Of a DNA stretch of 59,634 bases, positions 1 through 57,210 are shown piece by piece. Numbering within the stretch: the first letter of the stretch is position 1; every line of letters starts with the position of its first letter. Location of the stretch: positions 1-59,634 of the IMG/VR virus record IMGVR_UViG_3300005326_000008; one strand, given 5' to 3'. A program made the translations under genes and the position numbers. Source of the DNA: a virus. Its lineage: Duplodnaviria > Caudoviricetes. The notes beneath the pieces were generated by a model that was not told the origin of the DNA, did not search any database, and saw only the letters and a list, made by a program, of their open reading frames with translations.

Positions 1-123
1 AAAAGAGGGAGATGAAATATTATTAGAGGAAATTTATAAAGTACCTTACCCAATAGTTCTAGATATTGGAGCTGGCGATGGAAAGTGGGGTTCACTAATC
101 GACAAAGAGAGAATAAAATCTAT
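1..123. repeat. Terminal direct repeat, copy 1 (circular assembly overlap)
   Basis: 1-123 is identical to 59512-59634, and an ORF reads through the junction. Confidence 0.95.
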
Positions 124-1845: not shown

Positions 1846-1900
1846 TTACAAATTAAGAAACCTTTATATATTACATAAGCGTATATATAATATAAATAAG

Positions 1901-1945
1901 ATGGGCTAGGTCTAGCTAGTTAAGGCCGCCGGACCGATACCCACA
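1901..1945 (+). ncRNA. Candidate small RNA or GC-rich hairpin at the convergence of the two transcription arms
   Basis: BRE-TATA (GAAACCTTTATATA, 1857-1870). Stems TGGG/CCCA and GGTCTAGC/GCCGGACC. Confidence 0.35.
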
Positions 1946-1959
1946 AATTAAATTCTATT

Positions 1960-2169
1960 TTATAATGGATACCATTCTGAATGAGCATCCCTTAGGTATT
2001 TATCCAATGCGGTTGCACAACCACCAATTAATACCCACAACGCTGTGTTAACAGGGCTGGTATTGATTAATACGGATATTAATGCTGGTATCTGTGGTAC
2101 AACAGCTCTCAAAAATCTTTTTCCATAATGGAAGAAGCTTTCTTTAAAAGTATATGTTTTCTTTGCCAT
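1960..2169 (-). CDS. Small membrane protein, holin-like
   Basis: 69 aa with two hydrophobic segments and a basic N-terminus; GGAGG RBS; last gene of the late arm. Confidence 0.55.
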   Translation of the reverse strand: MAKKTYTFKESFFHYGKRFLRAVVPQIPALISVLINTSPVNTALWVLIGGCATALDKYLRDAHSEWYPL

Positions 2170-2222
2170 TTTTGTTCCTCCTTTCAGTTAATACTAATTA
2201 TTAAAAAATAAAAAAAATAGGG

Positions 2223-3767
2223 TTAATAAACCCCAATTGTTGCCTCAACTTGTTCGTCAACTAACTTGATTAATACATCATCGTTGTCTGCATTTGATTC
2301 TGGTGAGACAATTACGCAACCTAATGAAGTTAATACATCCTCATCAAATGTTCCGATTTCTCTGCCACTATACAAAATGTCAGTTGATTCTGCATCATCT
2401 TCGTTACCCAAACTTTCGCTTTCAGCTAATGAATTAATAGTAATCCATTCACCTAGTTCGTCAGTTATGTAGACTTCTCCATTTGGACCGAACTCGACTA
2501 CGTAATCTGCTTCATTCAAATCAATAACTACTTCGCTATCAGTTGCAACAACAAAGTCACTACCATCTGCGTAATAGATATTTGAACCGTCTGAATACAA
2601 GACACTAAAGTCATCTCCGTCAATTTCCAAGACATCTTCACTGGCTTTTAACTCAGTTACTTTGACATCTACTTCATCAACTTCAATTGTATCAAATCCA
2701 ATTTCTAGTTCAACTACACTTGGTTCACTTACTTTATCAAGGCATACAGACAAGTATTCTTCTGGGAATACGATACAATCTCCAATGCTCAATGCAGCCA
2801 TATCACTGTCTAATCTATTGAACTTTTCATCCAATACAACAGAGATACTTACCAATTGACCATCTTCAACTTTAATATCCCATACCCAATTAGCTGATTC
2901 TCCATAGTCATCGCCAGACTCAACAGTTTCCTGTGAACCAATGCCTACGACCAAAACAGCTGCACTTTCTGCTTTAGTGTCTCTATAGAAAATATTGTCT
3001 ACATAGACTTTCACACCATTAACAGTTTCAGTGTCACCTTCTTCAACAACTTCGGCTTCTCCATCAACAGCAACAATGACTGAATCCATACCAACGTCTA
3101 CTAACTCAACGCCATCGATTACTTCGCCAACATGAACATATTGTGTTGGTTTTGTAAAGTAAGTCATTGAATTCTCATCTACATCTGTAATAGACAAGAC
3201 TTGGCCTAAGAAACTTATTTCTAATGGATTGTTTTCACTGATGTCGTCAACTAAAACTTCATCTTCAAAATTATAGTTGTAACTAACAGATTCTCTTACT
3301 TCGCTAACTAAATAAACATTTGAACCAAACTCTGATTCATAATCTTCACTTCCGCTGTAAGCAATCTTATTGTCTGAAGTTAATTCTACACTTTCAGATA
3401 CATCAATACTGTCTTCTCCAAATTCTATTTCTGTGTCAATTAATTTCTCAACTTCGTTCTCATCAAGGCTCAATTCGACGTTATCACCTAGATTGTATTC
3501 TTCTGAATACAAAGCACTTGGTGCAACTACGATTACCTCTTCTTCTTCAACTGGCAAAGTCGCAATATAATCATCTATCGCACCTTGGTTGTCAGTTGTA
3601 ATATCTACTGATTCTTGACCGCTCAAGTAAGCTGCGTCTTCCATTGCTTTAACTTCTTCTGCTGTGTACTCAGTTGTGTTTTCTGTAGTACATGCACTTA
3701 AGAATACAGCAATGCCTAACATAGCAACAATACCTAAAACGACCAATACTTTCTTGCTTAAACCCAT
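2223..3767 (-). CDS. S-layer-like protein with lipoprotein signal
   Basis: Lipobox FLSA-C. Very acidic, beta-rich body with segments I recognise from DPANN S-layer proteins (NPLEISFLGQVLSIT, ETVNGVKVYVDNIFY, SPESNADNDDVLIKLVDEQVEA). Confidence 0.75.
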   Translation of the reverse strand: MGLSKKVLVVLGIVAMLGIAVFLSACTTENTTEYTAEEVKAMEDAAYLSGQESVDITTDNQGAIDDYIATLPVEEEEVIVVAPSALYSEEYNLGDNVELSLDENEVEKLIDTEIEFGEDSIDVSESVELTSDNKIAYSGSEDYESEFGSNVYLVSEVRESVSYNYNFEDEVLVDDISENNPLEISFLGQVLSITDVDENSMTYFTKPTQYVHVGEVIDGVELVDVGMDSVIVAVDGEAEVVEEGDTETVNGVKVYVDNIFYRDTKAESAAVLVVGIGSQETVESGDDYGESANWVWDIKVEDGQLVSISVVLDEKFNRLDSDMAALSIGDCIVFPEEYLSVCLDKVSEPSVVELEIGFDTIEVDEVDVKVTELKASEDVLEIDGDDFSVLYSDGSNIYYADGSDFVVATDSEVVIDLNEADYVVEFGPNGEVYITDELGEWITINSLAESESLGNEDDAESTDILYSGREIGTFDEDVLTSLGCVIVSPESNADNDDVLIKLVDEQVEATIGVY

Positions 3768-3797
3768 GTTTTTCTACCTCCATGAAATTTTATAGCT

Positions 3798-3959
3798 CTA
3801 ATCTCTAATATCTTCTCCTTTAATAACCTTTTTATTCATATTATTTAAAGGATTAGGGATATATAACTCGTTCACTTTCTCTGTTACTACTTTCCGAAGA
3901 AGAAGCTCATCTTCGGTGCGGATAGTTACTGAAAAGTGTGGAGCACGAAGAGAGTTCAT
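3798..3959 (-). CDS. Small hypothetical protein (53 aa)
   Basis: ORF fills the gap between the peptidase and S-layer genes. Confidence 0.35.
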   Translation of the reverse strand: MNSLRAPHFSVTIRTEDELLLRKVVTEKVNELYIPNPLNNMNKKVIKGEDIRD

Positions 3960-3960
3960 A

Positions 3961-4578
3961 TCAGTAAGCGATTAACACTACAACGCCTTTTATTTCCTCT
4001 AAGGCAACCCATGTCGCGTCTGCGCCCTTACAATTGTCTCCTTGACATTGGTACTCTGGGAGTCCGATTTTATTAGTCCTAACTCTCACAACCCTATGGC
4101 AGATACTATTTATGGAACCTTTCTTTTGGTAGACTATAATATCTCCAACCTTGGGGAGTTTATCTTTAGGCCAATGTTCTTGTGGCAAAATAATAATATG
4201 CGAGTCTTTATCTAATGTTGGTAACATAGAGTTTGTATCAGCTATAAAATGTTTAATTGGCTGTTTTACGTAGACCACAACGCTTGAATTCGATATCTTA
4301 ATCTCATCCTTTAATAACCAATCCTGTGGGGAGAAATCGTCTTTCTTACTACGGAATATAGCCGAACCTCCAGCTCTAATACCTTCAAAAGTATCTTCGC
4401 TATTGACTTCCAATTGATTAGTCTTACTTATCTTAACTAACTCTTGAGAAATTGCATCTCGTTGTTTGAATGATTCGTCTAACTGGGCCTCCAATGTTTT
4501 AATCTGGTCTTGGAGTTTTTTAATCTCCAGACTAGATTCTAACTTAAACCCTTTTATTGCCTCTTTTATTCTTATCAT
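3961..4578 (-). CDS. S24/S26 family peptidase (archaeal signal peptidase I-like) with N-terminal coiled coil
   Basis: TNSMLPTL (Ser), GDIIVY, ICHRVV (His), QGDN motifs; no transmembrane anchor. Confidence 0.8.
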   Translation of the reverse strand: MIRIKEAIKGFKLESSLEIKKLQDQIKTLEAQLDESFKQRDAISQELVKISKTNQLEVNSEDTFEGIRAGGSAIFRSKKDDFSPQDWLLKDEIKISNSSVVVYVKQPIKHFIADTNSMLPTLDKDSHIIILPQEHWPKDKLPKVGDIIVYQKKGSINSICHRVVRVRTNKIGLPEYQCQGDNCKGADATWVALEEIKGVVVLIAY

Positions 4579-4585
4579 TTTACTC

Positions 4586-5479
4586 CTAAGTTGTAATTAA
4601 ACCTGTTTCAGTTTTATATCCTTCAATCCACCAAATTCTCATTTTCACAGCTGATACCGCAATTGTAGCAGTATGGTTCTGGTATGAACAACCAAATGTG
4701 TATGAGGATTGACCAGCCATTAATGGTCCTGCACATGCACCGACATCATAAGCTGGCCCATCGTTTAAACTAGTTTCGCATATCGCGCTGTTTGCATCAT
4801 CACCTTGAACTGGCCAGATTGTTGACCAAATGTAATCTCTACTAGCAGTAGTTTCTAATGTCGCTGAAAATACAATATCATACGCTTGGTTAGAAGCATC
4901 TACATCACTCTGACTGTTATTTATGTAAAAAGAGAAATCACCGTGACCAGCGCCAGTAATAGAATATGTAAAACTAATCTGCATAGCTGTAATTATATTA
5001 TCCGCAGTTCTTGGTGTAAATGTATAAGTCCTTCCAGAAGCTGGTGACGAATCAGTGTAATCAATATATTTAACACAAGACTGTGTCACATACGATGTAG
5101 GAAATATATGAAAGTTTGTAGTAGAAGTTGCTACTCCTATTGGTACGCTAGATATGGTAGTACTTGTCCCTCCAGCGGATGTAGAGGTGTAATAAATCTC
5201 CTTAGCTGTTAATCCCGTCGTTCTATAATTTCCTCCACATTGTAAGTATACTGTGGTTCCAGAGTTTGCAGTGTTAAGTGCTATTCCTGTAAATTTGTTA
5301 TCTGCGGAAGCATCTTTATCAGACTGGTAAGCTTCACCATCAGATTCTGAAACATAACAAGCCTGACCTGCTGTTAAGTTTTCTCCAGCTTCAGCGTTGA
5401 TTATATTTATAGCTGCATTTGCGTCTCCATCATAAAATATATCTCCATCTGTTTTTGGTTGTACGTATTCAACTGCCAT
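4586..5479 (-). CDS. Tail fibre / receptor-binding protein
   Basis: AGENLTAGQACYVS beta-clip-like N-terminus; Ser/Thr-rich; at the end of the tail module. Confidence 0.55.
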   Translation of the reverse strand: MAVEYVQPKTDGDIFYDGDANAAINIINAEAGENLTAGQACYVSESDGEAYQSDKDASADNKFTGIALNTANSGTTVYLQCGGNYRTTGLTAKEIYYTSTSAGGTSTTISSVPIGVATSTTNFHIFPTSYVTQSCVKYIDYTDSSPASGRTYTFTPRTADNIITAMQISFTYSITGAGHGDFSFYINNSQSDVDASNQAYDIVFSATLETTASRDYIWSTIWPVQGDDANSAICETSLNDGPAYDVGACAGPLMAGQSSYTFGCSYQNHTATIAVSAVKMRIWWIEGYKTETGLITT

Positions 5480-5653
5480 TTATTTCACCTCATTTGCTTT
5501 ATATTCTAGGTACTCAATTATATGAGACCCACCGATTATTAATTTGTTTTTTAGATACCATCTAACTATGTCTTCTGAATCAATACTAGGAAACAATTTT
5601 AGAATTGCTTGCGATTGATTACTAAATTGTATGTTTAGTTCTGCATTTTCCAT
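5480..5653 (-). CDS. Small hypothetical protein (57 aa)
   Basis: Abuts both neighbours; GAGGTG RBS. Confidence 0.55.
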   Translation of the reverse strand: MENAELNIQFSNQSQAILKLFPSIDSEDIVRWYLKNKLIIGGSHIIEYLEYKANEVK

Positions 5654-7162
5654 TTATACCACCTCAATATAATCATTCTGTTGGATTTTAAAGTTGCTAG
5701 TTTTATATGTGGGGCTAATTCTACTTGCACAGAATAGTGTAGCAGTCCCACGATTTGCTAAGTGCCAATAGTCCATGACTATACTTCCTGCGGCAATTAT
5801 AGTCCCAGTACTATCAGTATGAAGTCCTATATAAAGATAATCCAAAGTTGTTACATTTGGAGAACCTATACTTGCCGAAGTTGCCAAGTTATGTTCTATA
5901 ACATTCCAATAATTTGTAAGTTCAACTTGAGAAAAGGATTTCACATAATAATTTGAACTATCATTCCCAATTCTAATCTCTACAGCCGTTCCTGTAGAAG
6001 CTAATTGGGTTATGTCAACAAATCTTAATCCCATTCCTAAATCACAACCTGTACCATCATAGGTACTACCCAATGTTTGATAATAATATGCAATTGTACT
6101 AGCCGTTCCGCTCTTACCTATACTCAACCCACTATCCCCTTCTCTGAACTGCGAAGTATTTATTACTTGTACAGCTGCATCAGTACTCTCTGTGAATGTC
6201 TGAGTACTACAATTATCTAATAAAGTAATACTTCCTCCGATAATACCTGTACTTAACCCTGTCTGCTGTAAATATACTGAAAGCGTTGTTCCTAGATTGT
6301 TAGTAGGTTCAGAGGTATCTAATACACTAATTACTACAGTCCTAAAACCAGAATCTGTATAGGAAGAAACGGCGTTTCTATCTTGAGGCAATACCACAGC
6401 ATAGTCTCTATCTGCAGGTATGGTTCCATTTCCAAAACCCCATTCTGAATAAATTGGTCTTGATGATGTATCTCCACCTATCCACGAACGAGTTAAATTT
6501 AATCCATCATTGGTAATTAGAGAGTTACCAACACTTTCATCACTAATCGTAAAAGTTTCACTAATCCTAGTAAATAACAAATCACTACATACTGTTCCTG
6601 TGAACACCCTCCTAGAAAAAATAGTCCCCCCTGTTGATGCGCTAAACCAACCTACTTCACCAATTGTGGTACCCCCCACGGTACTTATTCCCGGAACTAA
6701 TTCTCCAATCAGAGTTACATTATAACTAGTTCCTGTGTTAGAAGATAGAGTTACTCTAGAACCAACTTCACTTTCTAAAGCTGTGTCTGAAATATTAAAT
6801 GCTGTTGTTCCAGAACCTATTCCTACGTAAGTCGGAGAAGTTACTCCATTAGAAATCCAATCTCTCACCCAATATCTTCCGGAACTAGGTAATACTTGTT
6901 GGGTGGTATCTTCATAATAGGTTGAATAAGAACCTGTCAAATCTCCAAATTTGTCTGTACCAATAATACCATTAGTAGAAGAACCAAAAATAAAAGTAAG
7001 TCCTAACGATTTATTTTCTACCAATAGATTACTACTAACAACTTTTAATTTATAAGAGGTAACTACAAATTGTGTTGGCTGAGAACCCGGTTTAATCAAG
7101 TTATGTTGCATATTCTGTTGATTGCTCAAACTCCTACCTAATATCTCACCAAGTTCACTCAT
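5654..7162 (-). CDS. Tail tip / baseplate protein with putative carbohydrate-binding domain
   Basis: YVGIGSGTTAF..DTALESEV..R and TIGEVGWF tail-protein motifs; position in the tail module. Confidence 0.65.
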   Translation of the reverse strand: MSELGEILGRSLSNQQNMQHNLIKPGSQPTQFVVTSYKLKVVSSNLLVENKSLGLTFIFGSSTNGIIGTDKFGDLTGSYSTYYEDTTQQVLPSSGRYWVRDWISNGVTSPTYVGIGSGTTAFNISDTALESEVGSRVTLSSNTGTSYNVTLIGELVPGISTVGGTTIGEVGWFSASTGGTIFSRRVFTGTVCSDLLFTRISETFTISDESVGNSLITNDGLNLTRSWIGGDTSSRPIYSEWGFGNGTIPADRDYAVVLPQDRNAVSSYTDSGFRTVVISVLDTSEPTNNLGTTLSVYLQQTGLSTGIIGGSITLLDNCSTQTFTESTDAAVQVINTSQFREGDSGLSIGKSGTASTIAYYYQTLGSTYDGTGCDLGMGLRFVDITQLASTGTAVEIRIGNDSSNYYVKSFSQVELTNYWNVIEHNLATSASIGSPNVTTLDYLYIGLHTDSTGTIIAAGSIVMDYWHLANRGTATLFCASRISPTYKTSNFKIQQNDYIEVV

Positions 7163-18653: not shown

Positions 18654-19598
18654 CTAAGCGTATGGGTTCTTGACCAATATCCAAGCTACTGAGTTCGCAT
18701 CTGATGCGTTAGAGCTTGTAATGGTAATCGTTCCTGTGCTACATACTCCTGCTAATACTCCCGCGTTAGAAGTACCAGTGTTGTTAGTTAGGAATACTAT
18801 ATCACCAGTAGCGGCACTTGCGTTAGCTACTGTTGCTGCACCAGAGGACAAAGCAACTGTTCCTGCAACCAAACTGTTATCAGTAATGTATAACGTATTA
18901 TTAATAATAGTTGGTCCACTTAAAGATGCTGTACCTGAACTTCCAGTAGAGATTCCACCATTACCAATAATTAAACCAGTAGCAGTTAATCCGCTTACAG
19001 CAGCAACAGGCCCATTCAATGTCATTGTACCGTTTGCGCCCAAGGTTACATTATTGTTAAATGTCGCAGCAGCGCTATGTGTCATTGCACCTGAAATAGT
19101 AGATGGGCAAGAGATAGTTGCTGTGTTTGTACCAGAAGCTGTCAAAGCACCAGTAATTGTAGTAACGCCTGTAATTGAAGCAGTTCCATCAATGGTTAAT
19201 GGTCCTGATATTGTAACAGTTCCATTCGCTCCTATAGATACATTATTACTTGCAGTCAATGCACCAGTAATAGTTGTAACTCCGGTAATTGAAGTTGCAC
19301 CAGATATTGTATTTGCACCACTTAATGTGTTTGGTCCAGCCAAAGTGACAGTTCCTGTAGTTCCTACAGTAATACCTGCGCCTGTTTGGCAAGCTATTGT
19401 TGAATATGCTCTTAATGTGTCTGTGGTTGCAGCACATAAATCTACATTAGCATTTGCGTCTAATTTACCTGTTACGGTAAGTGTATCAGCACTAGCGTCA
19501 CCAAATGTGAAGTTTCCATCAACATCTAGGTTTCTTGAGATGCTAACGTCTCTTGCAGTAACATCTCCGCTATGCCATCCGAATCTTGTGTTTGTCAT
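18654..19598 (-). CDS. Head fibre / decoration protein
   Basis: Directly after MCP; Gly/Thr/Ala beta-helix repeats (SITGVTTITGALTAS twice). Confidence 0.65.
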   Translation of the reverse strand: MTNTRFGWHSGDVTARDVSISRNLDVDGNFTFGDASADTLTVTGKLDANANVDLCAATTDTLRAYSTIACQTGAGITVGTTGTVTLAGPNTLSGANTISGATSITGVTTITGALTASNNVSIGANGTVTISGPLTIDGTASITGVTTITGALTASGTNTATISCPSTISGAMTHSAAATFNNNVTLGANGTMTLNGPVAAVSGLTATGLIIGNGGISTGSSGTASLSGPTIINNTLYITDNSLVAGTVALSSGAATVANASAATGDIVFLTNNTGTSNAGVLAGVCSTGTITITSSNASDANSVAWILVKNPYA

Positions 19599-22018: not shown

Positions 22019-22574
22019 TGAACACACCTCTTACCTCAAAATATAAATCCATTGTAGAACCATCAAGGTATTTGGAATTGAAACTTTTCACAACAGCACC
22101 ACTGGAGTAAGGAAGCATAGAACAAGTATTAATCGCGTTTACTATATCTTCTTGGTTACTTACAACAATCGCATACAAATTCTTTACATCTACTGGTAAG
22201 TACTTAAGTCTGTTGATAATAGATTTCCGTTCTGCCCAAGATAACTTGCGAACATCTTTATTAAAATATAATACATCCAAAATGTATATCTTTGGAGTAT
22301 GGTGAGTTAGTATCAATTGTGAGAGCATTATTTTTAGAATAGTCGAAGGAGTAGTTTCAATGGGATAATAAGGTTCCATTTTCAATACTGCATCAAAAAT
22401 AAAATCTTTGTCTTTAAATTTTAAAAATTGGTTAGCAGTGTCTGGCATAGACATGGTTATATCTATTCCAGTAATAGTCTTAATCTTAACATCGTTACCT
22501 TTCTTGTGGATTACTACCCTAACTCCTTCAACTAATGGCTCGACACCATAGTTAACATTGAATGACTTCATCAA
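21996..22574 (-). CDS. ATP-dependent DNA ligase adenylation-domain homologue, predicted inactive
   Basis: VEPLVEGVRVVIHKKG (motif I, no Lys), FIFDAV, ILDVLYFN, ERKSII, SGAVVK...SKY; no OB domain. Confidence 0.75.
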   Translation of the reverse strand: MMKSFNVNYGVEPLVEGVRVVIHKKGNDVKIKTITGIDITMSMPDTANQFLKFKDKDFIFDAVLKMEPYYPIETTPSTILKIMLSQLILTHHTPKIYILDVLYFNKDVRKLSWAERKSIINRLKYLPVDVKNLYAIVVSNQEDIVNAINTCSMLPYSSGAVVKSFNSKYLDGSTMDLYFEVRGVFNESTIII

Positions 22575-23643
22575 TTAGCTTCCTCCATTCGGTCAACCAA
22601 GACTTTTTATCGTAATTAGCCTGAGCAAATGACCTTGGACTGAACTTCTCAAGGTTTTCTAGCACATATTTTATCCCATTCTCGAACCCTTGGACAGACT
22701 CTTCTACAACTAATCCAGCTTCAAATTCAGGTTTTTTATCCCAAAATAAGCCTGATTTTGTGGAAATAACCGGGACATTACAAGCCATAGACTCGATTGC
22801 TGTCAGGTTAAAACTTTCTATATGCGACGTGCAAATAGTTACATCTGCCATGTTATACATTAACTGCATGCAATCGTACTTGATATTATCAAACACGCTA
22901 ACATTCGGTGATACAATCTTGTTTTTCTTGACATTATGCTTGAACACTAATACAAAATGCCACTCTGGGTGAGCTAATATCAAATCTCTTACCAGTTCGT
23001 AACCTTTAACCGGATGGAATGCACCGGACCATAAGATAACCGGTTTGTCTAAAGGAACTTTCAATTCTTCACGGATTTTATTCTTTTCCATAGGTATGAA
23101 TAATTCTGTGTCACAAGCATGAGGCAAATATCTTATCTTGTCCTCGCCTTCAGGGTATATCTCTAAAACATAGTGTCTCATATATTCTGTTGGCACTACG
23201 ATTAAATGACTTTTCCTAAATTGTTCTACTTGTAATAATGGATATGTAAATCCGAACTCAGTATAATTATTCTGGTCATATACACCTAGCTCAGTAAATC
23301 TATCAGCTAATGGTAGATATGGGTTTTGTGCTATTGTTATTAACTTGATTGCCTTCGGGAAATAAAAAGGAAAACAACAATCATTAGCAATAATCAGTTT
23401 AGGTAATGAACCGACTAACTCTGCCATCTTCAAATAATGTGCCATGATACCAGTCTTAGAGATTACTTGTAAATTTGTATAAGCCCCAAATGGTTGTTGG
23501 TTCAATTTCATTGCACAATAGTTTGGAGTGAAAGTTTCAATCTGGTCTGAAGGAAACAATCCAGATAGTAGTAAATTAATCCGCTCACAACCGCCAATTA
23601 TCTCGCCAGCATCATAAAAGTTTGCTAGTAAATAGTCTTTCAT
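22552..23643 (-). CDS. Glycosyltransferase family 4 (GT-B)
   Basis: GGCE, HPVKG, ESFNLTAIESMACNVPVI (EX7E). Confidence 0.9.
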   Translation of the reverse strand: MKDYLLANFYDAGEIIGGCERINLLLSGLFPSDQIETFTPNYCAMKLNQQPFGAYTNLQVISKTGIMAHYLKMAELVGSLPKLIIANDCCFPFYFPKAIKLITIAQNPYLPLADRFTELGVYDQNNYTEFGFTYPLLQVEQFRKSHLIVVPTEYMRHYVLEIYPEGEDKIRYLPHACDTELFIPMEKNKIREELKVPLDKPVILWSGAFHPVKGYELVRDLILAHPEWHFVLVFKHNVKKNKIVSPNVSVFDNIKYDCMQLMYNMADVTICTSHIESFNLTAIESMACNVPVISTKSGLFWDKKPEFEAGLVVEESVQGFENGIKYVLENLEKFSPRSFAQANYDKKSWLTEWRKLIDEVIQC

Positions 23644-23651
23644 TTATTCAC

Positions 23652-24950
23652 CTATAATCCTAATGACTGCGTATGGTAGTCCATTACTTGTTTGCTTGCG
23701 TCTTGCTCTCCTGAAACTTTATCAACTAACTTTACCCATTGGTTCATAACATCTTCTTTCAGATAATTCTTTGTATGGTTGATTGCATTCTCAGAATATT
23801 GTTTGAACTCTGGTTTGTTTCTCTGGTCAAACATGATTAACATATCTTCAGTTAGTTCGCCCATGTTAATTAGAAACAAATCTGATAATGCTGGCATAGT
23901 CTCAATATACGCTGGAGTTACTGTCATCCCCGCCTTAGGAGTCTCTACCAACTCTTGGCCAGTAGTTGCTCTGAAAGTTAATTGAGGTATTCCACAAGCC
24001 ATGGATTCTAAAATAGGTAATCCAAAAGATTCGCCACTAGAAGTCTGGACATTTACATCAGACATCCAATACATCTTTTTCATATACTCTGGCCCAAATG
24101 CTTGGTTAGAGTTATATTTCATCCCTCGACCATCCATCTCGTTAGTTGGCTCAGGTTTACCTAATTTGTCTAGCTTAAAGTTTACAAAGATTATATGGTT
24201 ATCCAACCTATACATTTGTCTCATTAAGATTAGGTTCATACCTTCAGGTTCTATTGGGTCGGTAACTAGTACTATCCTAGCCTTTTCTTCAAACTCCTTA
24301 TTCAAATCACAAGCTCGTCTGAAGGATTTAAACATTGCTGGATAATTCTTTTGGTTACCTTTATTTCTCATAACGGAAATAAACACAAAATTATCTTTAT
24401 TCAACCCAAATCTTTCTCTAAACTCGTGCCTATTATCCGATTCTGTTGGAGGATAATATTCTTCAGGTGAGATAAAGTGAGGGATATATTCTACTGTGGG
24501 ATAACCAGTCTTAATCAATAAATCAGTCCCCCATTGGCTTGGGACTACCAAAACCTTAGCTCTAGAAATCTTATTTACCATAAACGGAGATATCGGACTA
24601 GCATTTACTGTTACATGCGCTATCCAAGTTAAGTCTTTGAACTTTTCAACTACCCTAGGAATATGAGCTACACAATCCATCCACAAATCCATTCCAGTTA
24701 GTAAGATGTCTATGTTACAAATTCTCAAATAATCTTCTAGTACATCACTAGTCCAAGGGTCGTACCTTAGTCCCAGTCTCTGGATACCATCATTATCAAT
24801 ATGGCTAATACCTATATCTTGCATGCCAAAGTAATAGACATTGTATCCGGATTTCTTCAGAGCTCGTGCTACCTCTGAGAATATGACTGCGTACCCAAAC
24901 CTAGTATTTATAGAGTTACTAAGTATCAAAATGTTCTTTTTTCGTTCCAT
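23652..24950 (-). CDS. Glycosyltransferase family 4 (GT-B)
   Basis: RNKGNQKN and GESFGLPILESMACGIPQ (EX7E). Confidence 0.9.
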   Translation of the reverse strand: MERKKNILILSNSINTRFGYAVIFSEVARALKKSGYNVYYFGMQDIGISHIDNDGIQRLGLRYDPWTSDVLEDYLRICNIDILLTGMDLWMDCVAHIPRVVEKFKDLTWIAHVTVNASPISPFMVNKISRAKVLVVPSQWGTDLLIKTGYPTVEYIPHFISPEEYYPPTESDNRHEFRERFGLNKDNFVFISVMRNKGNQKNYPAMFKSFRRACDLNKEFEEKARIVLVTDPIEPEGMNLILMRQMYRLDNHIIFVNFKLDKLGKPEPTNEMDGRGMKYNSNQAFGPEYMKKMYWMSDVNVQTSSGESFGLPILESMACGIPQLTFRATTGQELVETPKAGMTVTPAYIETMPALSDLFLINMGELTEDMLIMFDQRNKPEFKQYSENAINHTKNYLKEDVMNQWVKLVDKVSGEQDASKQVMDYHTQSLGL

Positions 24951-28567: not shown

Positions 28568-28752
28568 CGTCCTGTGATTAGTTTCTTTGCACGTTCATAT
28601 AACCCTACGTCTACTAGTTTTTTCTTGTTAACTTTGTCAATAAAATTAGAACCACATTTCTGGCAATGGAGATATTCGAAACCCATAGTTACTTGTACAC
28701 ATTCGTACATCTCACATTCTCCACAATCCGGGCAGACATGTAATCCAATCAT
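28564..28752 (-). CDS. Zinc-ribbon protein
   Basis: CPDC...CQKC. Confidence 0.65.
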   Translation of the reverse strand: MIGLHVCPDCGECEMYECVQVTMGFEYLHCQKCGSNFIDKVNKKKLVDVGLYERAKKLITGR

Positions 28753-29477
28753 TTGTTTAATGCTGCGAATATTTCTTCGCGAATGTTTTGGTTGTTCCTG
28801 AACAGAGCATGTATCTTCTCGTTAGTTGTCTGGTGAGGATGACGTCTGTATCTAGAAGTAATCTTGTCAGCTTTGATGAACTTAACTTTGTTCACTAACG
28901 CGGTCTTTAGTATGTGATGAAGGTCTTCTCCAAGTTTATACTTCTCGCTGAAATTGTTAGCGCGCCAAGTGTCGATATCGGAAAATATTGTACCATACAT
29001 TACAAACATATCATTCCTGTTCGCGTAGTTAAGTACAGCTATCCTGAAGTCGGAATCATCTTCGAATACCGGTGCAGTAAATACACCCAATATGTTTCCA
29101 TTTGGGTCGATATTATAATAGTCTGCGTACACGAAACAACCAACCTTGTAAGCTCGAAGCCAAATGTCTACAGCATCAGGTTCTAATAAATCATCATCAC
29201 TACAAAAAGCAAGGAATAGTCCGGAGGCATTGTCTACCAAAGTCTTCCGACCAAACCCGATACCCTTTCTCTCTGGTTCGATTATTAATCTAACCCTTGG
29301 ATTAAATTGGTATTTGAAGTTTAGTGAAGCTAGTTCGTCTTCAGAAACTCCGTCACAGAAAACTAACACTTCAGTATTCTTATAAGTCTGATTCAGGCAA
29401 CTGTCTATTGATTGAAATAAATAATCGTTTACTCTACAAGTAGGTATGCCTATCGTGACTAGTGCTTGCTCTTCCAT
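28749..29477 (-). CDS. Glycosyltransferase family 2 (GT-A)
   Basis: VTIGIPT, SCLNQTY, FCDG, SDDD, GED, YRRH. Confidence 0.9.
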   Translation of the reverse strand: MEEQALVTIGIPTCRVNDYLFQSIDSCLNQTYKNTEVLVFCDGVSEDELASLNFKYQFNPRVRLIIEPERKGIGFGRKTLVDNASGLFLAFCSDDDLLEPDAVDIWLRAYKVGCFVYADYYNIDPNGNILGVFTAPVFEDDSDFRIAVLNYANRNDMFVMYGTIFSDIDTWRANNFSEKYKLGEDLHHILKTALVNKVKFIKADKITSRYRRHPHQTTNEKIHALFRNNQNIREEIFAALNK

Positions 29478-29484
29478 GTTACAC

Positions 29485-30468
29485 CTATAAGAACTCTTTA
29501 TGTTTAAGTTCTGATACCAACGATTCTAATAACTTGTTGTAGTTAGTGTAATAACATTTGACACATTTGTTCCCAGCAGCCATAGGGTTCCTAGAGCTAA
29601 GCAAATCATAATTACGCCAGTGGCCTAAGCTTAGTTCCTGAGGTAAATCTCTGCTCGGTGTCTCAAACGCGTACTGGACTCCGCAGCATGCGTACATTAC
29701 TCCATCTGGGCCTATTAATGGTTTCAAAAATGCAATCCTACAATCCATACCTCTCTCGTAATCTTTACGTTCTTGGTAGATTACACGACTATCACTGACA
29801 CCGTTATCTTTCAAATATGCCTTGATAGGTTTGAAATCAATATTTTGTGGTTCGAACAAATCCGCTACAAGTCGTACATGAGTGAAATTAAACTCGTTAG
29901 CAAACTTAACTACCCTAGCAATCTCTTCCAAGTTAGGTTTCTTGGTCACAACATGACTGAACGCCCAGTCTACATCAGGCATACTCTCCACTGCAGTAGC
30001 AAGTCTATCAACATAAGGTTCTTGGAATGACCTGTGGTCACCATTAGAAATCCTGAACCAAGTTAATTTATTTCCAACTTTAGGATTTAATTTCTGGATT
30101 GCCAGTCCGTTAGATACCAGACCTACTTGGATTCCCCTAGAAGTATATGCTTCAATCAATTCGTTGATATGCGGATAAATCAAAGGTTCACCACCACCAG
30201 TAATAGTAACTGCTTTGGTCCCAAGAGTTGCAAAGTAATCAATCATCTCCACAGCTTCTTCTATGTCCATCTCTAATGTCTTGTCTCGTTCACTACAACT
30301 ACAGAATGGACAATTCATATTACAATGGTTTGTTGGAATATGCTGGATATGTATTGGAGGAATGATTCCTTTTTTTGTTAGTTTGATTACGTCTTCGTCT
30401 AAGACAACTTTGATTGGAAAGTTATCTGCAGCCGTGAAAGAATTTCGTCTATCTACATCTTTTGTCAT
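29485..30468 (-). CDS. Radical SAM protein with SPASM/twitch-like Cys cluster
   Basis: CNMNCPFC, TGGGEP, SNG; C-terminal C..YACC..CVKC. Confidence 0.9.
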   Translation of the reverse strand: MTKDVDRRNSFTAADNFPIKVVLDEDVIKLTKKGIIPPIHIQHIPTNHCNMNCPFCSCSERDKTLEMDIEEAVEMIDYFATLGTKAVTITGGGEPLIYPHINELIEAYTSRGIQVGLVSNGLAIQKLNPKVGNKLTWFRISNGDHRSFQEPYVDRLATAVESMPDVDWAFSHVVTKKPNLEEIARVVKFANEFNFTHVRLVADLFEPQNIDFKPIKAYLKDNGVSDSRVIYQERKDYERGMDCRIAFLKPLIGPDGVMYACCGVQYAFETPSRDLPQELSLGHWRNYDLLSSRNPMAAGNKCVKCYYTNYNKLLESLVSELKHKEFL

Positions 30469-32226: not shown

Positions 32227-32592
32227 TCATTTCCTCACCCCCTCGCCTTTCTTTAATATATCTAATAACTCTGGATTAGCGTCTTTCTCATCAATTATCT
32301 CAAACTCCTTTTTTAGTAAATTAATCTCTGTTTCCAACTGTTTAATCTTTTGATATGCCAAAGTTAATTCTTTTAGATTTGCTGAATATTGTTGATACAT
32401 CTTGTTATGGCTTATTTCCAACTGCTTAATCCTGTCCTGCTGTGCCTGTAATAATTTTTTAATTAACTCAAAATTTATACTTAAATGTTTTTTTGAAAGT
32501 AACTCACATTTGTTTGTTTTTAAGAAATCAATAATACTATTTATATTATCAATTTCGTCTTCAACTTCCCTGTCAAGTTCGTCACTTTTCAT
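32227..32592 (-). CDS. Coiled-coil hypothetical protein
   Basis: GAGGT RBS; heptad pattern. Confidence 0.6.
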   Translation of the reverse strand: MKSDELDREVEDEIDNINSIIDFLKTNKCELLSKKHLSINFELIKKLLQAQQDRIKQLEISHNKMYQQYSANLKELTLAYQKIKQLETEINLLKKEFEIIDEKDANPELLDILKKGEGVRK

Positions 32593-33296
32593 TTTAGATA
32601 CCTCTTGATTTCTTTATATTTGTATAAGCCATATTTATTTCAGACATTTTGTTACCAAATTCTTTTTTAGCTTCTTCGGATAATGCCATATCTGGATGGT
32701 ATGTCTTTGCTAATGTCTTAAATCTTTTCTCTACTTCATCATTACTTGCAAGACTATTTATTCCTAAAATCATATAATCTTTCTCTGAAACTGAATCTTG
32801 CATAGGTTTTGCTTCTTGAAATTCCGAATAGTTAGGTAATTCCAAATAAGCAATCATAGATTTTTCAAAGTCTTCTATTCCCATCAAATGAGACCTAACT
32901 TTATATTCCATTACTCTTGCAATGGCAAACATATTTAATCTGCAATTTCGTTGTCTTTTTGAAATAAATTGATAATCTTTTCCATTAAATTTAAACTTTA
33001 CAGATGCTACATTTGTTGGTGCATCATATCTTAAATCAATTAACATTCCAGAGATTTTTATTTTGCCTAACCATTCTCTAATTTCACTCATTGCATTAGT
33101 GATTGGTTTACTTGTGTTTAATTGCCCTATTTGTCCCATTTATTCCTCCTTTAAATCCTTCTAACCAAGCTTTTCTTGGTGTCATTTTGTCTATTAATTT
33201 TGAATAATTTGAATCAATATATCCTTTTGGGGTTTTTTTCAATAGTTTCAACTCTACTAAATTATTTAACACATCTTCAACTTCCCTGTCAAGTTC
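32558..33296. repeat. 23-bp direct repeat flanking the J-domain gene
   Basis: TCTTCAACTTCCCTGTCAAGTTC at 32558-32580 and 33274-33296. Confidence 0.85.
32594..33139 (-). CDS. J-domain (DnaJ-like) protein
   Basis: YMILGI..ASNDEVEKRFKTLAKTYHPD..EINMAY. Confidence 0.85.
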   Translation of the reverse strand: MGQIGQLNTSKPITNAMSEIREWLGKIKISGMLIDLRYDAPTNVASVKFKFNGKDYQFISKRQRNCRLNMFAIARVMEYKVRSHLMGIEDFEKSMIAYLELPNYSEFQEAKPMQDSVSEKDYMILGINSLASNDEVEKRFKTLAKTYHPDMALSEEAKKEFGNKMSEINMAYTNIKKSRGI

Positions 33297-33449
33297 TTCT
33301 GGTGTCATCTTACCTTCCCCTTTGCACATACAATTTCTGCAATAATAATCTTTCAACCAAGTTTTGGCTAATACCTTGTGTGGTATGAAAACAACCTGTT
33401 CTTCATAACAATTCATACATCTTGCAACATATTTGTATTTGGTTTTCAT
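33108..33449 (-). CDS. Zn-ribbon hypothetical protein (possibly a fusion of two small genes)
   Basis: CMNC/CRNC, then an internal MTPEELDREVED start. Confidence 0.5.
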   Translation of the reverse strand: MKTKYKYVARCMNCYEEQVVFIPHKVLAKTWLKDYYCRNCMCKGEGKMTPEELDREVEDVLNNLVELKLLKKTPKGYIDSNYSKLIDKMTPRKAWLEGFKGGINGTNRAIKHK

Positions 33450-53399: not shown

Positions 53400-53671
53400 C
53401 ACAAAGATTAGAAATTTTGGTATTACAAGTTTCAGTCCCGAAGATAAGGGAAGGAAATGTTGAAGTGTTTAGAGTTTATGATGCTGAGGTTTATACCCTA
53501 TGCCCTCATGAATTTAAAAAGATAGAAGATGCTGCTAGGCTATGTTATTTACAATACCCACAACATACGCCTTTATTACATACTGATTCAGATTCATTTA
53601 CTAAATTTCATGAAGAATATAGGAGGCTGAAACAAGATGAAACCGCAACAACTGAACACACTGATATCTAG
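53396..53671 (+). CDS. Hypothetical protein
   Basis: GGAGG RBS. Confidence 0.55.
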   Translation: MTQRLEILVLQVSVPKIREGNVEVFRVYDAEVYTLCPHEFKKIEDAARLCYLQYPQHTPLLHTDSDSFTKFHEEYRRLKQDETATTEHTDI

Positions 53672-54638
53672 ATTAAAAAATCATAAATTAACATTAACAG
53701 AATTGTGTGACACATTTAAAGAAACACCAGAGAGTTTGGTGCCAATATTAGAGGGATTAAAACAATCGGGGATACCTGTTACCCTTAATACTGAACATTC
53801 TGGAGAATTAGTCTATCATATTAATGTCCAACCTCAAGCAGGGAACGTTTATGTGATAAGTCAAAAAGATTCGAAAGAAAGGAATATGAAGTTTGGACTG
53901 GCTAGCGACTTACATTTTTCAAGTCTATTTCATTTGCCTAAGACATTCCACACTGCTATGAAGATATTGGAAGATAGAGGTATTACTAGAGTTTATATTG
54001 CTGGTGACATTGTAGATGGTTATGGTATCTATCCCGGGCATCTTGAGAATCTAATAGAGGCTACAGTTGAAAGACAAACAGACGTAGCTGCCACAGAATT
54101 CTCTAAACATCCGGGCTTAGAATTTTGGGGGATAGCTGGCAACCATGATTATAGTCATACTAAGATGAATGGAGTTAGGCCATTAGCACTTATAGAAAAC
54201 AAGTGTGACAATTTCAAAAACCTTGGAGAGATAAGAGCAGATGTTATCTATCACGGAATTAGAATAAGATTATTGCATGGTGCTGGAGGTAGAAGTTATT
54301 CCTTGAGTTACCCTACGCAATGCTATCTTAGAGATTATTTCAAAGGATTAGATAGGTCAGAAATGGCTAATGTACCACATATTATGGGTGTAGGGCATTA
54401 TCATACCCAATACTTTAGCAAAGACCATGGTGTCTACATATTACAACCCGGAAGTTTCCAGAGTGGAGAAAACGAATATTGTGCGAGGAGAGGATTGACT
54501 GGGCCCAATGGTTGTTTCCTTGTAGATTGTGATTATAAGAATGGTCAGGTAACTTCATTTAGAACAGAGTACATAGAACCAGCTATAGGTTTTAAAGAAA
54601 AAGGTATGATTGCACAAGGTAAGAGGATTGATTCATGA
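53637..54638 (+). CDS. Calcineurin-like metallophosphoesterase with N-terminal wHTH
   Basis: SDLH, AGDIVDG, GNHD, LHG, GHYH. Confidence 0.9.
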   Translation: MKPQQLNTLISRLKNHKLTLTELCDTFKETPESLVPILEGLKQSGIPVTLNTEHSGELVYHINVQPQAGNVYVISQKDSKERNMKFGLASDLHFSSLFHLPKTFHTAMKILEDRGITRVYIAGDIVDGYGIYPGHLENLIEATVERQTDVAATEFSKHPGLEFWGIAGNHDYSHTKMNGVRPLALIENKCDNFKNLGEIRADVIYHGIRIRLLHGAGGRSYSLSYPTQCYLRDYFKGLDRSEMANVPHIMGVGHYHTQYFSKDHGVYILQPGSFQSGENEYCARRGLTGPNGCFLVDCDYKNGQVTSFRTEYIEPAIGFKEKGMIAQGKRIDS

Positions 54639-56871: not shown

Positions 56872-56882
56872 GAGATGAAAAC

Positions 56883-57119
56883 ATGTTAGAATGGCTAAAA
56901 ATGAAACTTGATGATTATGTACAACTTTATTGGGTTGTCAAAGATTGTATCAATGAAAAGGGAGTTAGGTATTCAATTGAATATGATAATAAAAGATATT
57001 GTTGTAATTCCCTAGTATGTTCTGAAGACCCTAAAGGAGATTGTCCATTTGCTGAGTACAAAACGGAAAATAGGCCATTATGCCACAGGCAAGAATATAT
57101 CGGAGTTAAGAAACAATGA
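56883..57119 (+). CDS. Cys-rich hypothetical protein
   Basis: GGAG RBS; six Cys. Confidence 0.55.
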   Translation: MLEWLKMKLDDYVQLYWVVKDCINEKGVRYSIEYDNKRYCCNSLVCSEDPKGDCPFAEYKTENRPLCHRQEYIGVKKQ

Positions 57120-57210
57120 ATCTTGAAGAAGTAGTAACTTATGGTCTGATAGTTTTTTTAATTTTATTATTAGGGTTTAGTATTGGATTGACATTGGGGT
57201 GTTTGTATTT

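What the first reader, a model, noticed from the sequence alone, without database searches (positions are those of the whole stretch)
2223..3767. Captured host-type S-layer domain re-anchored by a lipobox
Seen: signal peptide ending LSA-C, an acidic linker, then a DPANN-like S-layer body that stops right after DEQVEATIGVY, with no C-terminal anchor region. Inferred: the virus puts its own S-layer subunit on the cell surface. This could give superinfection exclusion, destabilise the lattice for egress, or change attachment of the symbiont to its own host.
Basis: partly seen in the sequence, partly recalled or inferred. Interest (0 to 1): 0.75.

Follow-up and report, generated by a model that had tools for sequence, protein, structure and literature searches.

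The report
Virus-encoded lipid-anchored S-layer core protein
A complete tailed virus, probably of DPANN archaea, encodes a membrane-tethered copy of the core of its host type's surface-layer protein without that protein's own anchor domain, and many related viruses carry similar genes, so it may alter or weaken the host's surface coat.

Summary
Window 2223-3767 (-) encodes a 514-aa protein with a signal peptide ending in the lipobox L-S-A-C (Cys26). A very acidic ~58-aa linker follows, then a confidently modelled all-beta body (85-514) that ends at ...ATIGVY.

The body is homologous to the central part of archaeal PF05124-type S-layer proteins (hhalign probability 100%, E 2.9e-88, 438 columns). 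Its best structural match is the Methanosarcina S-layer DUF1608 domain.

Both the N- and C-terminal pieces of the S-layer protein's composite domain are missing. That domain matches PDB 9FSA, the "dimeric anchor" of the Methanococcus voltae S-layer.

This virus did not capture the gene recently. The protein sits in a fully supported all-lipobox clade, inside a large family of N-anchored short forms (86 of 164 sequences analysed).

Fourteen other IMG/VR viral contigs carry anchored forms. None carries the PF05124 form.

Atlas taxa point to DPANN archaea and tailed viruses. No direct host link was obtained.

Function is inferred. The protein most likely joins or caps the host S-layer lattice, for egress or for receptor masking. 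A protease-like gene repeatedly lies just upstream.

No published description was found in five literature searches.

The parts
2223..3767 (-). Whole gene: 514-aa precursor of a lipid-anchored S-layer-core protein (stop codon at 2223-2225)
   Evidence: ORF list and translation. 670 homologous clusters. AF2 model with pLDDT 88.3.
3693..3767 (-). Signal peptide, residues 1-25 (basic MGLSKK, then a hydrophobic core)
   Evidence: Read. Hydrophobicity 2.8 over the best 19-residue window. Modelled as helix 8-23.
3690..3701 (-). Lipobox L23-S24-A25-C26. Cys26 is the predicted lipidated first residue of the mature protein.
   Evidence: Read. Motif as quoted in PMC12462473. A Cys-ending lipobox is kept in 6 of 6 closest relatives and in the 10-row clade.
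3516..3689 (-). Acidic linker or tether, residues 27-84, with the protein's only N-X-S/T sequon (N30)
   Evidence: 25.9% D+E. Low-confidence helices 36-51 and 61-70. In other family members this region is longer and coiled-coil-like.
2226..3515 (-). All-beta body, residues 85-514, homologous to the central core of PF05124-type S-layer proteins and DUF1608-like in fold
   Evidence: hhalign probability 100%, E 2.9e-88, query 80-514 = P0104 90-622. Foldseek probability 1.00 to 3u2g/3u2h. VIA Z 8.6, rmsd 5.5, 207 residues to 3u2h_A.
3776..3781 (-). GGAGGT ribosome-binding site, 8 nt upstream of the ATG
   Evidence: Read.
3788..3794 (-). TATAAAA element starting 27 nt upstream of the ATG. It may be an archaeal TATA box; this is untested.
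   Evidence: Read. Inference only.
2208..2235 (-). Terminator-like hairpin (7 pairs) overlapping the stop codon, followed by a run of 8 T
3961..4578 (-). Upstream neighbour (205 aa): coiled-coil N-terminus plus a C-terminal part resembling S26/SEC11 signal peptidase. Tentative partner in a cassette.
   Evidence: Pfam Peptidase_S26 at E 0.12, below cut-off. Sub-threshold SEC11A/C hits at E 0.68-0.93. In L002, L003 and L031 the same slot holds a transglutaminase-like protease.
1960..2169 (-). Downstream neighbour (69 aa), a small hydrophobic protein. Tentative holin-like partner.
   Evidence: Small hydrophobic ORFs also flank the gene in L002 and L003, but they show no detectable similarity.

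Best explanation
The gene encodes a virus-made, membrane-tethered mimic of the host's S-layer subunit.

Shown:
- The precursor has a Sec-type signal peptide ending in a lipobox.
- The mature protein would start at Cys26, followed by a ~58-residue very acidic tether.
- It then carries one complete copy of the all-beta core that forms the middle of PF05124-type archaeal S-layer proteins. This is the architecture reported for the DPANN archaeon Ca. Micrarchaeum harzensis and for Methanococcus.
- It lacks the composite N+C domain. In the M. voltae S-layer protein that domain forms the 2-fold 'dimeric anchor' (PDB 9FSA).
- It belongs to a large, old family of such anchored cores. The family is carried mainly by tailed viruses, with lipobox, signal-anchor or C-terminal-TM anchors used interchangeably.

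Inferred:
- The host's lipoprotein machinery (AliA/AliB type) lipidates Cys26, so the core hangs from the outer face of the membrane beneath or within the S-layer.
- Because it keeps the lattice-core domain but cannot make the 2-fold anchor contacts, it co-assembles with or caps the host lattice and so remodels or weakens it.
- Given its place as the last large gene of the tail/late operon, next to a protease-like gene and a small hydrophobic ORF, I favour a role in breaching the S-layer at egress (about 40%). Receptor masking or superinfection exclusion comes next (about 30%).

My odds: identity and architecture about 0.9; archaeal host about 0.85; DPANN host about 0.65.
For: Virus: the window has an HK97-type capsid, a Mu-type portal and a large terminase. 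It is an IMG/VR record rated 100% complete with direct terminal repeats, and the 123-nt repeat was seen directly.

Homology:
- phmmer found 670 clusters at E<=1e-3.
- 7 of 8 long forms tested are Pfam PF05124 at 26-61 bits against a 23.9-bit cut-off.
- hhalign of short forms against long forms gave probability 100%, E 2.9e-88, 438 columns. The match covers the whole viral body and only profile columns 83-575 of 715 in the long forms.

Missing domain:
- The long-form profile hits 9FSA at E 4.1e-15 through profile positions 38-78 and 580-675, both outside the shared part.
- Foldseek gives probability 1.00 and 30% identity over 86 columns for the same entry.
- PMC11410804 describes 9FSA as the domain responsible for dimerisation of the anchor on the 2-fold axis. 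It says these S-layer proteins share the domain arrangement of the M. acetivorans protein (passages).

Fold: DUF1608 of MA0829 is the only probability-1.00 Foldseek hit and the only VIA hit with Z>=8 (8.6, against 6.4 for the next).

DPANN:
- Atlas structure rows include a 699-aa PF05124 cluster (93% of members carry PF05124) that is 96% Archaea, commonest Aenigmatarchaeota.
- The ~500-560-aa clusters are about 90% Archaea, commonest Nanobdellota.
- The Micrarchaeum S-layer protein has N- and C-terminal S-layer domains plus a single central Methanosarcina-like domain.
- Lipoproteins and AliA are reported as prevalent in DPANN.
- The capsid's only hit in 50,697 phage records is an Altiarchaeum virus.
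- The two runs that hold all sampled words are labelled groundwater metagenome, and either may be the sample the window was assembled from.

Viral family:
- All 14 other IMG/VR contigs found carry anchored forms, 0 with PF05124.
- A scan of IMG/VR with the long-form alignment found none.
- Atlas short-form clusters are 96% Viruses (82 with a known phylum) and 60% Viruses (15 known).

Cassette:
- A transglutaminase-like protease gene lies directly upstream in L002, L003 and L031, within 1.1 kb in L036 and 8 kb away in L029. That is 5 of 16 loci examined.
- The gene ends with a terminator-like site.
Against: - No experiment or expression data exist. No RNA run is on record for this stretch.
- The function rests on architecture and gene order only.
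- Gene position is not constant. In L016 and L018 the gene follows a replication module (PolB, NrdD), which fits a movable accessory gene better than a fixed lysis cassette.
- 11 of 16 loci showed no transglutaminase-like neighbour.
- The window's own upstream ORF is only weakly peptidase-like (E 0.12 and 0.68).
- The small hydrophobic ORFs are not detectably related to each other.
- Pfam calls PF05124 the 'outer domain'. The PDB title and PMC11410804 call it an anchoring domain. So which face of the lattice the missing domain occupies is unsettled.
- Host assignment is indirect. No CRISPR or tRNA link was found (0 tRNAs). One relative lies in a MAG labelled Bacillota.
- The viral body is much more acidic than three long forms checked (25.6% against 14-17% D+E). 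It may not fit a host lattice.
- Some short forms may be cellular.
Confidence: 0.5

Rival explanations
1. Superinfection exclusion or receptor masking. S-layer proteins are the usual receptors of tailed archaeal viruses. A membrane-tethered S-layer core made by the resident virus would alter or occupy the lattice, together with the virus's many glycosyl-, methyl- and sulfo-transferases. Later virions would then fail to adsorb or inject, and progeny would not be lost on cell debris.
For: - S-layer proteins are the main receptors identified for euryarchaeal viruses (PMC10791045, passages).
- The gene lies next to the tail-fibre genes.
- It is close to surface-glycan modification clusters in the window and in L003. 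L017 is flanked by GT4, GT2 and UDP-glucose dehydrogenase genes.
- From my own recall, not from any call: phage exclusion lipoproteins such as T5 Llp are encoded beside receptor-binding genes.
- The variable position of the gene fits a moron-like accessory gene.
Against: - No integrase or lysogeny module was seen among the ORFs scanned, so long-term residence is not evident.
- There is no similarity to any known exclusion protein in PHROGs or BFVD.
- The recurrent protease neighbour fits lysis better.
Confidence: 0.3
2. An ordinary cellular component that viruses merely carry. N-anchored (lipobox or TM) cores with a coiled-coil stalk would be the normal membrane-anchoring 'stalk' subunits of DPANN S-layers, analogous to SlaB of Sulfolobales. 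The viral copies would be passengers or host-range-matched replacements.
For: - The Micrarchaeum paper speculates that a second, membrane-anchored stalk subunit exists.
- Atlas clusters of 480, 499 and 561 aa are 75-90% labelled Archaea/Nanobdellota.
- L017's signal-anchor form lies among glycosyltransferase and UDP-glucose dehydrogenase genes with no viral hallmark.
- Short forms are as old and diverse as long forms on the tree.
Against: - Taxon labels rest on 8-10 members per cluster, and MAG bins can hold viral contigs. L002, in a 'Bacillota' MAG, has the same protease plus family-gene pair as the viral locus L003. None of 40 relatives of that MAG has the body.
- The largest short-form cluster is 96% Viruses.
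- 14 of 14 IMG/VR loci carry anchored forms.
- These viruses also carry glycosyltransferases, so L017 may itself be viral.
Confidence: 0.15
3. A bacterial (Bacillota) phage lipoprotein with only a distant resemblance to archaeal S-layer proteins.
For: - The NCBI label of P0003/L002 is 'Bacillota bacterium'.
- The lipobox and the GGAGGT site look equally bacterial.
- The terminase also hits Bacteroides and other phages weakly.
Against: - 0 of 40 relatives of that MAG carry the body, and the MAG has no PF05124.
- L002 is a 7.2-kb contig with the same gene pair as viral L003.
- The homologous long forms are 96% Archaea.
- The capsid's only hit is an archaeal virus.
Confidence: 0.05

Closest known systems
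PF05124-type archaeal S-layer proteins (M. voltae SLP with anchor-domain structure 9FSA; Ca. Micrarchaeum harzensis SLP; the 'long forms' P0050, P0085, P0104 and others)
   Same: The whole central all-beta core is shared: hhalign probability 100%, E 2.9e-88, 438 columns. Both are acidic and secreted.
   Different: - The viral protein lacks both halves of the composite N+C anchor/dimerisation domain.
- It has a lipobox instead of an ordinary signal peptide.
- It has an acidic tether.
- It is more acidic: 25.6% against 14-17% D+E.
- It is encoded by a virus.
Methanosarcina acetivorans S-layer protein MA0829, DUF1608 domain (PDB 3U2G/3U2H)
   Same: Best structural match of the body: Foldseek probability 1.00; VIA Z 8.6 over 207 residues spanning model residues 83-514. 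The literature links the central domain of DPANN and Methanococcus S-layer proteins to this domain.
   Different: - No sequence-level match to PF07752 or TIGR01567 at E<=1.
- TM-scores are low (0.23 by query, 0.36-0.39 by target) and rmsd is 5.5-8.7.
- MA0829 has a tandem pair of these domains; the viral protein has one.
Phage superinfection-exclusion lipoproteins (T5 Llp, Cor, TP-J34 Ltp). Recalled; Cor was seen only in a search listing.
   Same: These are phage-encoded, lipobox-anchored surface proteins, often encoded beside receptor-binding genes. A receptor-masking function would be analogous.
   Different: No sequence or fold similarity was detected. Those proteins are small and block a receptor or injection. 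This one is a 489-aa copy of the probable receptor lattice's own core.
Spanins and other third-step lysis factors of tailed phages. Recalled; the review PMC6116005 was seen only as a listing.
   Same: A late-operon, lipid-anchored envelope protein that could deal with the outermost layer after the membrane is breached.
   Different: Not homologous. The host has no outer membrane. The proposed action is lattice poisoning, not membrane fusion.
SlaB-type membrane-anchored stalk subunits of Sulfolobales S-layers
   Same: Membrane anchor, then an elongated stalk, then beta domains that engage the lattice-forming subunit (mentioned; SlaA/SlaB).
   Different: SlaB is C-terminally anchored, unrelated in sequence and cellular. 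Here the anchored protein is a paralogue of the lattice subunit itself.

Membership tests
PF05124-type archaeal S-layer protein (S_layer_C; M. voltae / M. jannaschii type) | Composite N+C domain (PF05124; 9FSA 'dimeric anchor') | tested here: not met
   P0001 has no PF05124 hit at E<=1. The shared region excludes long-form profile columns 1-82 and 576-715, and these are the parts that match 9FSA.
PF05124-type archaeal S-layer protein (S_layer_C; M. voltae / M. jannaschii type) | Central all-beta core domain homologous to that of family members | tested here: met
   phmmer E 2e-32 to 1e-22 against long forms. hhalign probability 100%. Atlas TM 0.66 over 428 residues to a cluster in which 93% of members carry PF05124.
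PF05124-type archaeal S-layer protein (S_layer_C; M. voltae / M. jannaschii type) | Self-assembly into a two-dimensional lattice | not testable with these tools
   Needs microscopy or a symmetric-assembly prediction.
DUF1608 / PF07752 / TIGR01567 (Methanosarcina S-layer duplication domain) | Sequence match to the family model | tested here: not met
   No hit at E<=1 in Pfam or NCBIfam.
DUF1608 / PF07752 / TIGR01567 (Methanosarcina S-layer duplication domain) | Same fold as 3U2G/3U2H | tested here: inconclusive
   It is the top hit of both aligners: probability 1.00 and Z 8.6 with 207 aligned residues. However, TM is 0.23-0.39 and rmsd 5.5-8.7, and Z is near the level the tool calls common.
Prokaryotic lipobox lipoprotein | Basic n-region, hydrophobic h-region and [LVI][ASTVI][GAS]C with the Cys at roughly residue 15-35 | tested here: met
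   K5, K6; hydrophobic 7-22; L23-S24-A25-C26. Motif as in PMC12462473. SignalP was not available.
Prokaryotic lipobox lipoprotein | Conservation of the lipobox cysteine among relatives | tested here: met
   6 of 6 closest relatives. The 10-row clade is all lipobox. 54 of 164 family sequences are lipobox forms. 32 relatives use an uncleaved signal anchor instead.
Prokaryotic lipobox lipoprotein | Lipidation and signal-peptide cleavage by host enzymes | not testable with these tools
   AliA is reported present in DPANN 'with some gaps'. The host is unknown.
Known phage exclusion lipoproteins or spanins | Sequence or fold similarity to a described family | tested here: inconclusive
   PHROGs gave only E 0.02-0.05 hits to families of unknown function. 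BFVD gave no match with probability above 0.38. A missing match does not exclude a functional analogy.

The most novel reading that the evidence does not exclude
These anchored cores are 'poison subunits' of the S-layer. They would be the missing envelope-breaching factor of tailed archaeal viruses.

The lipid- or TM-tethered core joins the host hexagonal lattice through its conserved core contacts. It lacks the 2-fold dimeric anchor domain, so it terminates or loosens the lattice. Together with the adjacent protease-like enzyme and a small membrane protein, it forms a lysis cassette at the end of the late operon.

If so, a whole, widespread family (hundreds of clusters, mostly in viruses of DPANN archaea) would be the first identified S-layer-disrupting system of archaeal viruses.
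Probability: 0.25. Interest if true: 0.85.

Novelty: new variant of a known kind. Interest (0 to 1): 0.68.

Why it matters
Two problems are open according to the review PMC10791045 (passages). No S-layer-degrading activity has been identified in archaeal viruses. The egress machinery of head-tailed archaeal viruses is described there as 'completely uncharacterized'.

S-layer proteins are also the main known receptors of these viruses. A large, mostly virus-borne family that copies the S-layer's lattice core, drops its dimeric anchor domain and ties the core to the membrane is a concrete candidate for both processes.

It also bears on how DPANN symbionts, whose surface mediates contact with their own hosts, are reshaped during infection. 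The domain logic can be tested in tractable archaea with PF05124-type S-layers (Methanococcus, Thermococcus) without culturing the DPANN host.

I found no description of such proteins in the searches. These cover open-access full text and bioRxiv only.

Tried and rejected
- Direct family scans of the protein (Pfam, NCBIfam, PHROGs) gave nothing above threshold.
- The word-indexed protein search found only 4 relatives, even with the 50-row profile. Source names gave no taxonomy.
- The protein had no hit in the annotated phage collection.
- The short-form profile gave only coiled-coil noise against PDB sequences.
- Single-protein locus scans found nothing. Four alignments were too diverse for the pattern scan. 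The A5 scan of IMG/VR found none.
- Complex prediction on two copies of the body (85-514) gave no verdict, score 0.00. This is not evidence either way.
- No RNA holder was listed for window 1900-6000, so there is no evidence on expression. I did not lay reads.
- The VIA wide library was unavailable for the second model.
- A scan of the 67 remaining window ORFs gave only a DNA-ligase domain and an SprT-like domain. No host-domain marker emerged.
- Small hydrophobic ORFs beside the gene in the window, L002 and L003 are not detectably homologous. I therefore do not claim a conserved holin.
- I considered a virion or tail-protein role and rejected it as unlikely, because of the conserved lipobox or signal anchor and the lack of any fold match to tail proteins.
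Full report
**What is there**

Window 2223-3767 (minus strand) is an intact 514-codon ORF. Its N-terminus has a basic n-region (MGLSKK), a 16-residue hydrophobic core and the lipobox L-S-A-C with Cys26. This fits the motif quoted in PMC12462473 (abstract).

Residues 27-84 are strongly acidic (25.9% D+E) and only weakly structured. Residues 85-514 fold as a confident all-beta body (AF2 with a 50-row alignment, mean pLDDT 88.3, most 10-residue blocks above 90). The protein ends ...DEQVEATIGVY.

A GGAGGT site lies 8 nt before the ATG and a TATAAAA element 27 nt before it. A hairpin followed by eight T overlaps the stop codon.

**The replicon**

The window is a whole viral genome. It is an IMG/VR record rated 100% complete with direct terminal repeats, and I saw the 123-nt repeat directly. 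It encodes an HK97-type capsid protein, a Mu-type portal and a large terminase, and tail or baseplate-like proteins just upstream of the gene.

It carries an unusual load of glycosyltransferases, methyltransferases, a sulfotransferase and a radical-SAM enzyme. Of the 67 remaining ORFs, only a DNA-ligase domain and an SprT-like domain were recognised.

**Homology**

Pfam, NCBIfam and PHROGs do not recognise the protein. An exhaustive phmmer search of 1.84 billion representatives found 670 clusters at E<=1e-3, 471 at 1e-10 and 52 at 1e-30.

I analysed 164 sequences: the query, the retrieved proteins of at least 300 aa, and four locus-encoded members. They fall into these groups:
- 54 short forms with a lipobox
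- 32 short forms with an uncleaved N-terminal signal anchor
- 5 N-truncated short forms
- 40 long forms that continue 112-175 residues past the point where the query ends
- 6 forms with a C-terminal transmembrane helix and a basic tail
- 27 that aligned only in part

Seven of eight long forms tested are Pfam PF05124 (S_layer_C) at 26-61 bits against a 23.9-bit cut-off. The domain is split between their two ends.

Profile-profile comparison of 50 short forms with 35 long forms gave probability 100%, E 2.9e-88 and 438 aligned columns. Query residues 80-514 correspond to P0104 residues 90-622 of 742. The viral body is therefore the complete middle of an S-layer protein.

**What is missing**

A model of the long form P0104 (pLDDT 85.2) shows the same beta core. 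It is flanked by an alpha/beta domain built from N-terminal and C-terminal elements.

That model matches PDB 9FSA with Foldseek probability 1.00 and 30% identity over 86 columns. The entry is titled 'Cell wall anchoring domain of the surface layer protein of Methanococcus voltae (aa 24-75; 484-576)'. The long-form sequence profile hits 9FSA at E 4.1e-15 in two stretches, profile 38-78 and 580-675. Both lie outside the part shared with the viral protein.

The source paper (PMC11410804, passages read) describes this as the domain responsible for dimerisation of the anchor on the lattice's 2-fold axis. It says the Methanococcus, Pyrococcus and Thermococcus S-layer proteins share the domain arrangement of the M. 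acetivorans protein.

Consistently, the viral body's best structural match is the DUF1608 domain of M. acetivorans MA0829:
- It is the only Foldseek hit with probability 1.00.
- It is the only VIA hit at Z>=8 (Z 8.6, rmsd 5.5, 207 residues, against Z 6.4 for the next).

The similarity is modest (TM 0.23-0.39), and no sequence model of that family matches.

The S-layer protein of the DPANN archaeon Ca. Micrarchaeum harzensis is described with exactly this layout: N- and C-terminal S-layer domains plus one central Methanosarcina-like domain (bioRxiv 10.1101/2021.04.28.441871, passages).

One caution applies. Pfam labels PF05124 the 'outer domain'.

**Who carries the anchored forms**

Pattern scans of IMG/VR found anchored forms on 14 further viral contigs. 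By architecture:
- 7 have a clear lipobox.
- 4 are identical copies with a lipobox-like CVGC.
- 2 have a signal anchor.
- 1 has a C-terminal transmembrane helix.
- None has the PF05124 extension.

A scan with the long-form alignment found nothing in IMG/VR. These scans depend on short patterns and are not a census.

Contexts of the metagenome contigs:
- L018 has the gene beside PolB and NrdD.
- L020 has the C-terminal-TM form right after an HK97-type capsid gene.
- L017 has a signal-anchor form among glycosyltransferase and UDP-glucose dehydrogenase genes, which is ambiguous.

One relative lies on a 7.2-kb contig of a MAG labelled Bacillota. None of 40 relatives of that MAG has the body. The MAG has no PF05124. 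The contig carries the same protease plus family-gene pair as viral locus L003. I read it as a mis-binned or mobile viral fragment.

The ESM Atlas gives leads rather than proof. Nearest structural clusters to the query:
- a 438-aa cluster, 60% Viruses
- a 699-aa cluster in which 93% of members carry PF05124, 96% Archaea, commonest Aenigmatarchaeota, TM 0.66 over 428 residues
- 499- and 561-aa clusters, about 90% Archaea, commonest Nanobdellota

For the signal-anchor form P0015, the nearest cluster (score 0.92, 176 members) is 96% Viruses.

Other host hints:
- The capsid's only hit among 50,697 phage records is an Altiarchaeum virus.
- The two runs that hold the stretch in full are labelled groundwater metagenome, and either may be the sample the window was assembled from.
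- Predicted lipoproteins and the lipidation enzyme AliA are reported as prevalent in DPANN (PMC12462473, passages).

**Evolution**

A FastTree of the body (136 rows, 433 columns, midpoint root for drawing only) puts the query in a 10-row, all-lipobox clade with support 100. Of the 39 long forms, 38 cluster together.

Lipobox and signal-anchor states interchange often. Starred branches alone force at least 15 and 13 changes respectively.

The closest relatives share almost nothing else with the window beyond this gene and weak tail-fibre and glycosyltransferase matches. The gene therefore moves among different viruses and is old. This virus did not capture it from its host.

The direction of evolution, short from long or long from short, cannot be read without a root.

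**Mechanism**

What is shown is the architecture: a lipid-anchor signal, an acidic tether, a complete lattice-core domain, and no dimeric anchor domain.

I infer that the host's lipoprotein machinery attaches Cys26 to the membrane, and that the core engages the host S-layer. Because the protein keeps the core but cannot make the 2-fold contacts, it would cap or loosen the lattice.

Gene order gives some support for a late, envelope-directed cassette:
- The gene is the last large gene of the tail operon and ends in a terminator-like site.
- A transglutaminase-like protease gene lies immediately upstream in L002, L003 and L031, within 1.1 kb in L036 and 8 kb away in L029, which is 5 of 16 loci.
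- In the window that slot holds a different ORF with only sub-threshold signal-peptidase (S26/SEC11) similarity.
- Small hydrophobic ORFs flank the gene in the three closest loci, but they are not detectably related.

Against a fixed lysis cassette, in L016 and L018 the gene follows the replication module.

Receptor masking or superinfection exclusion is a serious rival. S-layer proteins are the main known receptors of such viruses, and the gene sits near surface-glycan modification clusters in the window and L003. A third possibility is that N-anchored cores are normal cellular stalk subunits of DPANN S-layers.

**Novelty**

Five literature searches found no description of virus-encoded S-layer-core proteins. 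I read passages in PMC12647753, PMC13437554, PMC11329633, PMC8324899 and PMC10791045.

The review PMC10791045 states that no S-layer-degrading enzymes are known in archaeal viruses and that the egress players of head-tailed archaeal viruses are uncharacterised.

I file the protein as a new variant of a known kind. It is an S-layer protein relative with a different anchoring logic, and it is virus-borne and widespread.

**Verdict**

- Observation: confirmed.
- Interpretation: partly supported. The architecture is right, while 'captured by this virus' and the uniqueness of the lipobox form are not supported.
- Host: probably DPANN, but this is indirect.
- Function: inferred only.

Noticed in passing
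window 3961-4578 (-): A 205-aa ORF directly upstream has a coiled-coil N-terminus. Its C-terminal part shows SMLPTL...GDIIVY...HRV...GDN motifs resembling ER/archaeal-type signal peptidase I. All hits are sub-threshold (Pfam S26 E 0.12; SEC11A/C E 0.68-0.93).
   Followed up: partly
L002 2-1690, L003 8689-9438, L031 8749-9555, L036 12580-13254, L029 732-1394: Transglutaminase-like cysteine-protease genes (Pfam Transglut_core, E 1.5e-10 in L003) recur beside the S-layer-core gene in related viral loci. They are possible lytic enzymes.
   Followed up: partly
window 22552-24950, 28749-30468, 53637-58975 and 2-541: The virus carries at least five glycosyltransferase-like genes, four or more methyltransferases, a sulfotransferase, a radical-SAM enzyme and a metallophosphoesterase. 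Two GT4 genes sit between the capsid and portal genes. L003 has a similar cluster beside its copy of the gene.
   Followed up: partly
window 1960-2169 (-); L002 1692-1925; L003 9707-9916: Small (69-77 aa) hydrophobic ORFs flank the gene in the three closest loci. They have no detectable similarity to each other and could be holin-like.
   Followed up: partly
L020 6430-8346; L024 10001-11962: A third architecture of the same core is also virus-borne: an N-terminal CarboxypepD_reg-like domain, the core, then a C-terminal transmembrane helix and a conserved basic tail. In L020 it lies in a structural module after an SU10-type capsid gene.
   Followed up: partly
L016 3648-6938: The family-B DNA polymerase of a related viral contig is interrupted by an intein with a LAGLIDADG domain.
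   Followed up: no
window 32594-33139 (-): A 181-aa ORF has a C-terminal DnaJ (J) domain (E 3e-10). This is unusual for a tailed virus.
   Followed up: no
window 18654-19598 (-): A 314-aa ORF ends in a K1-lyase_C domain (E 6e-7), the C-terminal module of capsule-specific tailspikes.
   Followed up: no
window 32542-32606 and 33258-33322: A 65-nt direct repeat (74% identical) lies 716 nt apart at the starts of neighbouring small minus-strand genes. They may be paralogous gene starts.
   Followed up: no
window 1-123 and 59512-59634: An exact 123-nt direct terminal repeat. The methyltransferase ORF that is open at the left end (2-541) begins inside it.
   Followed up: partly
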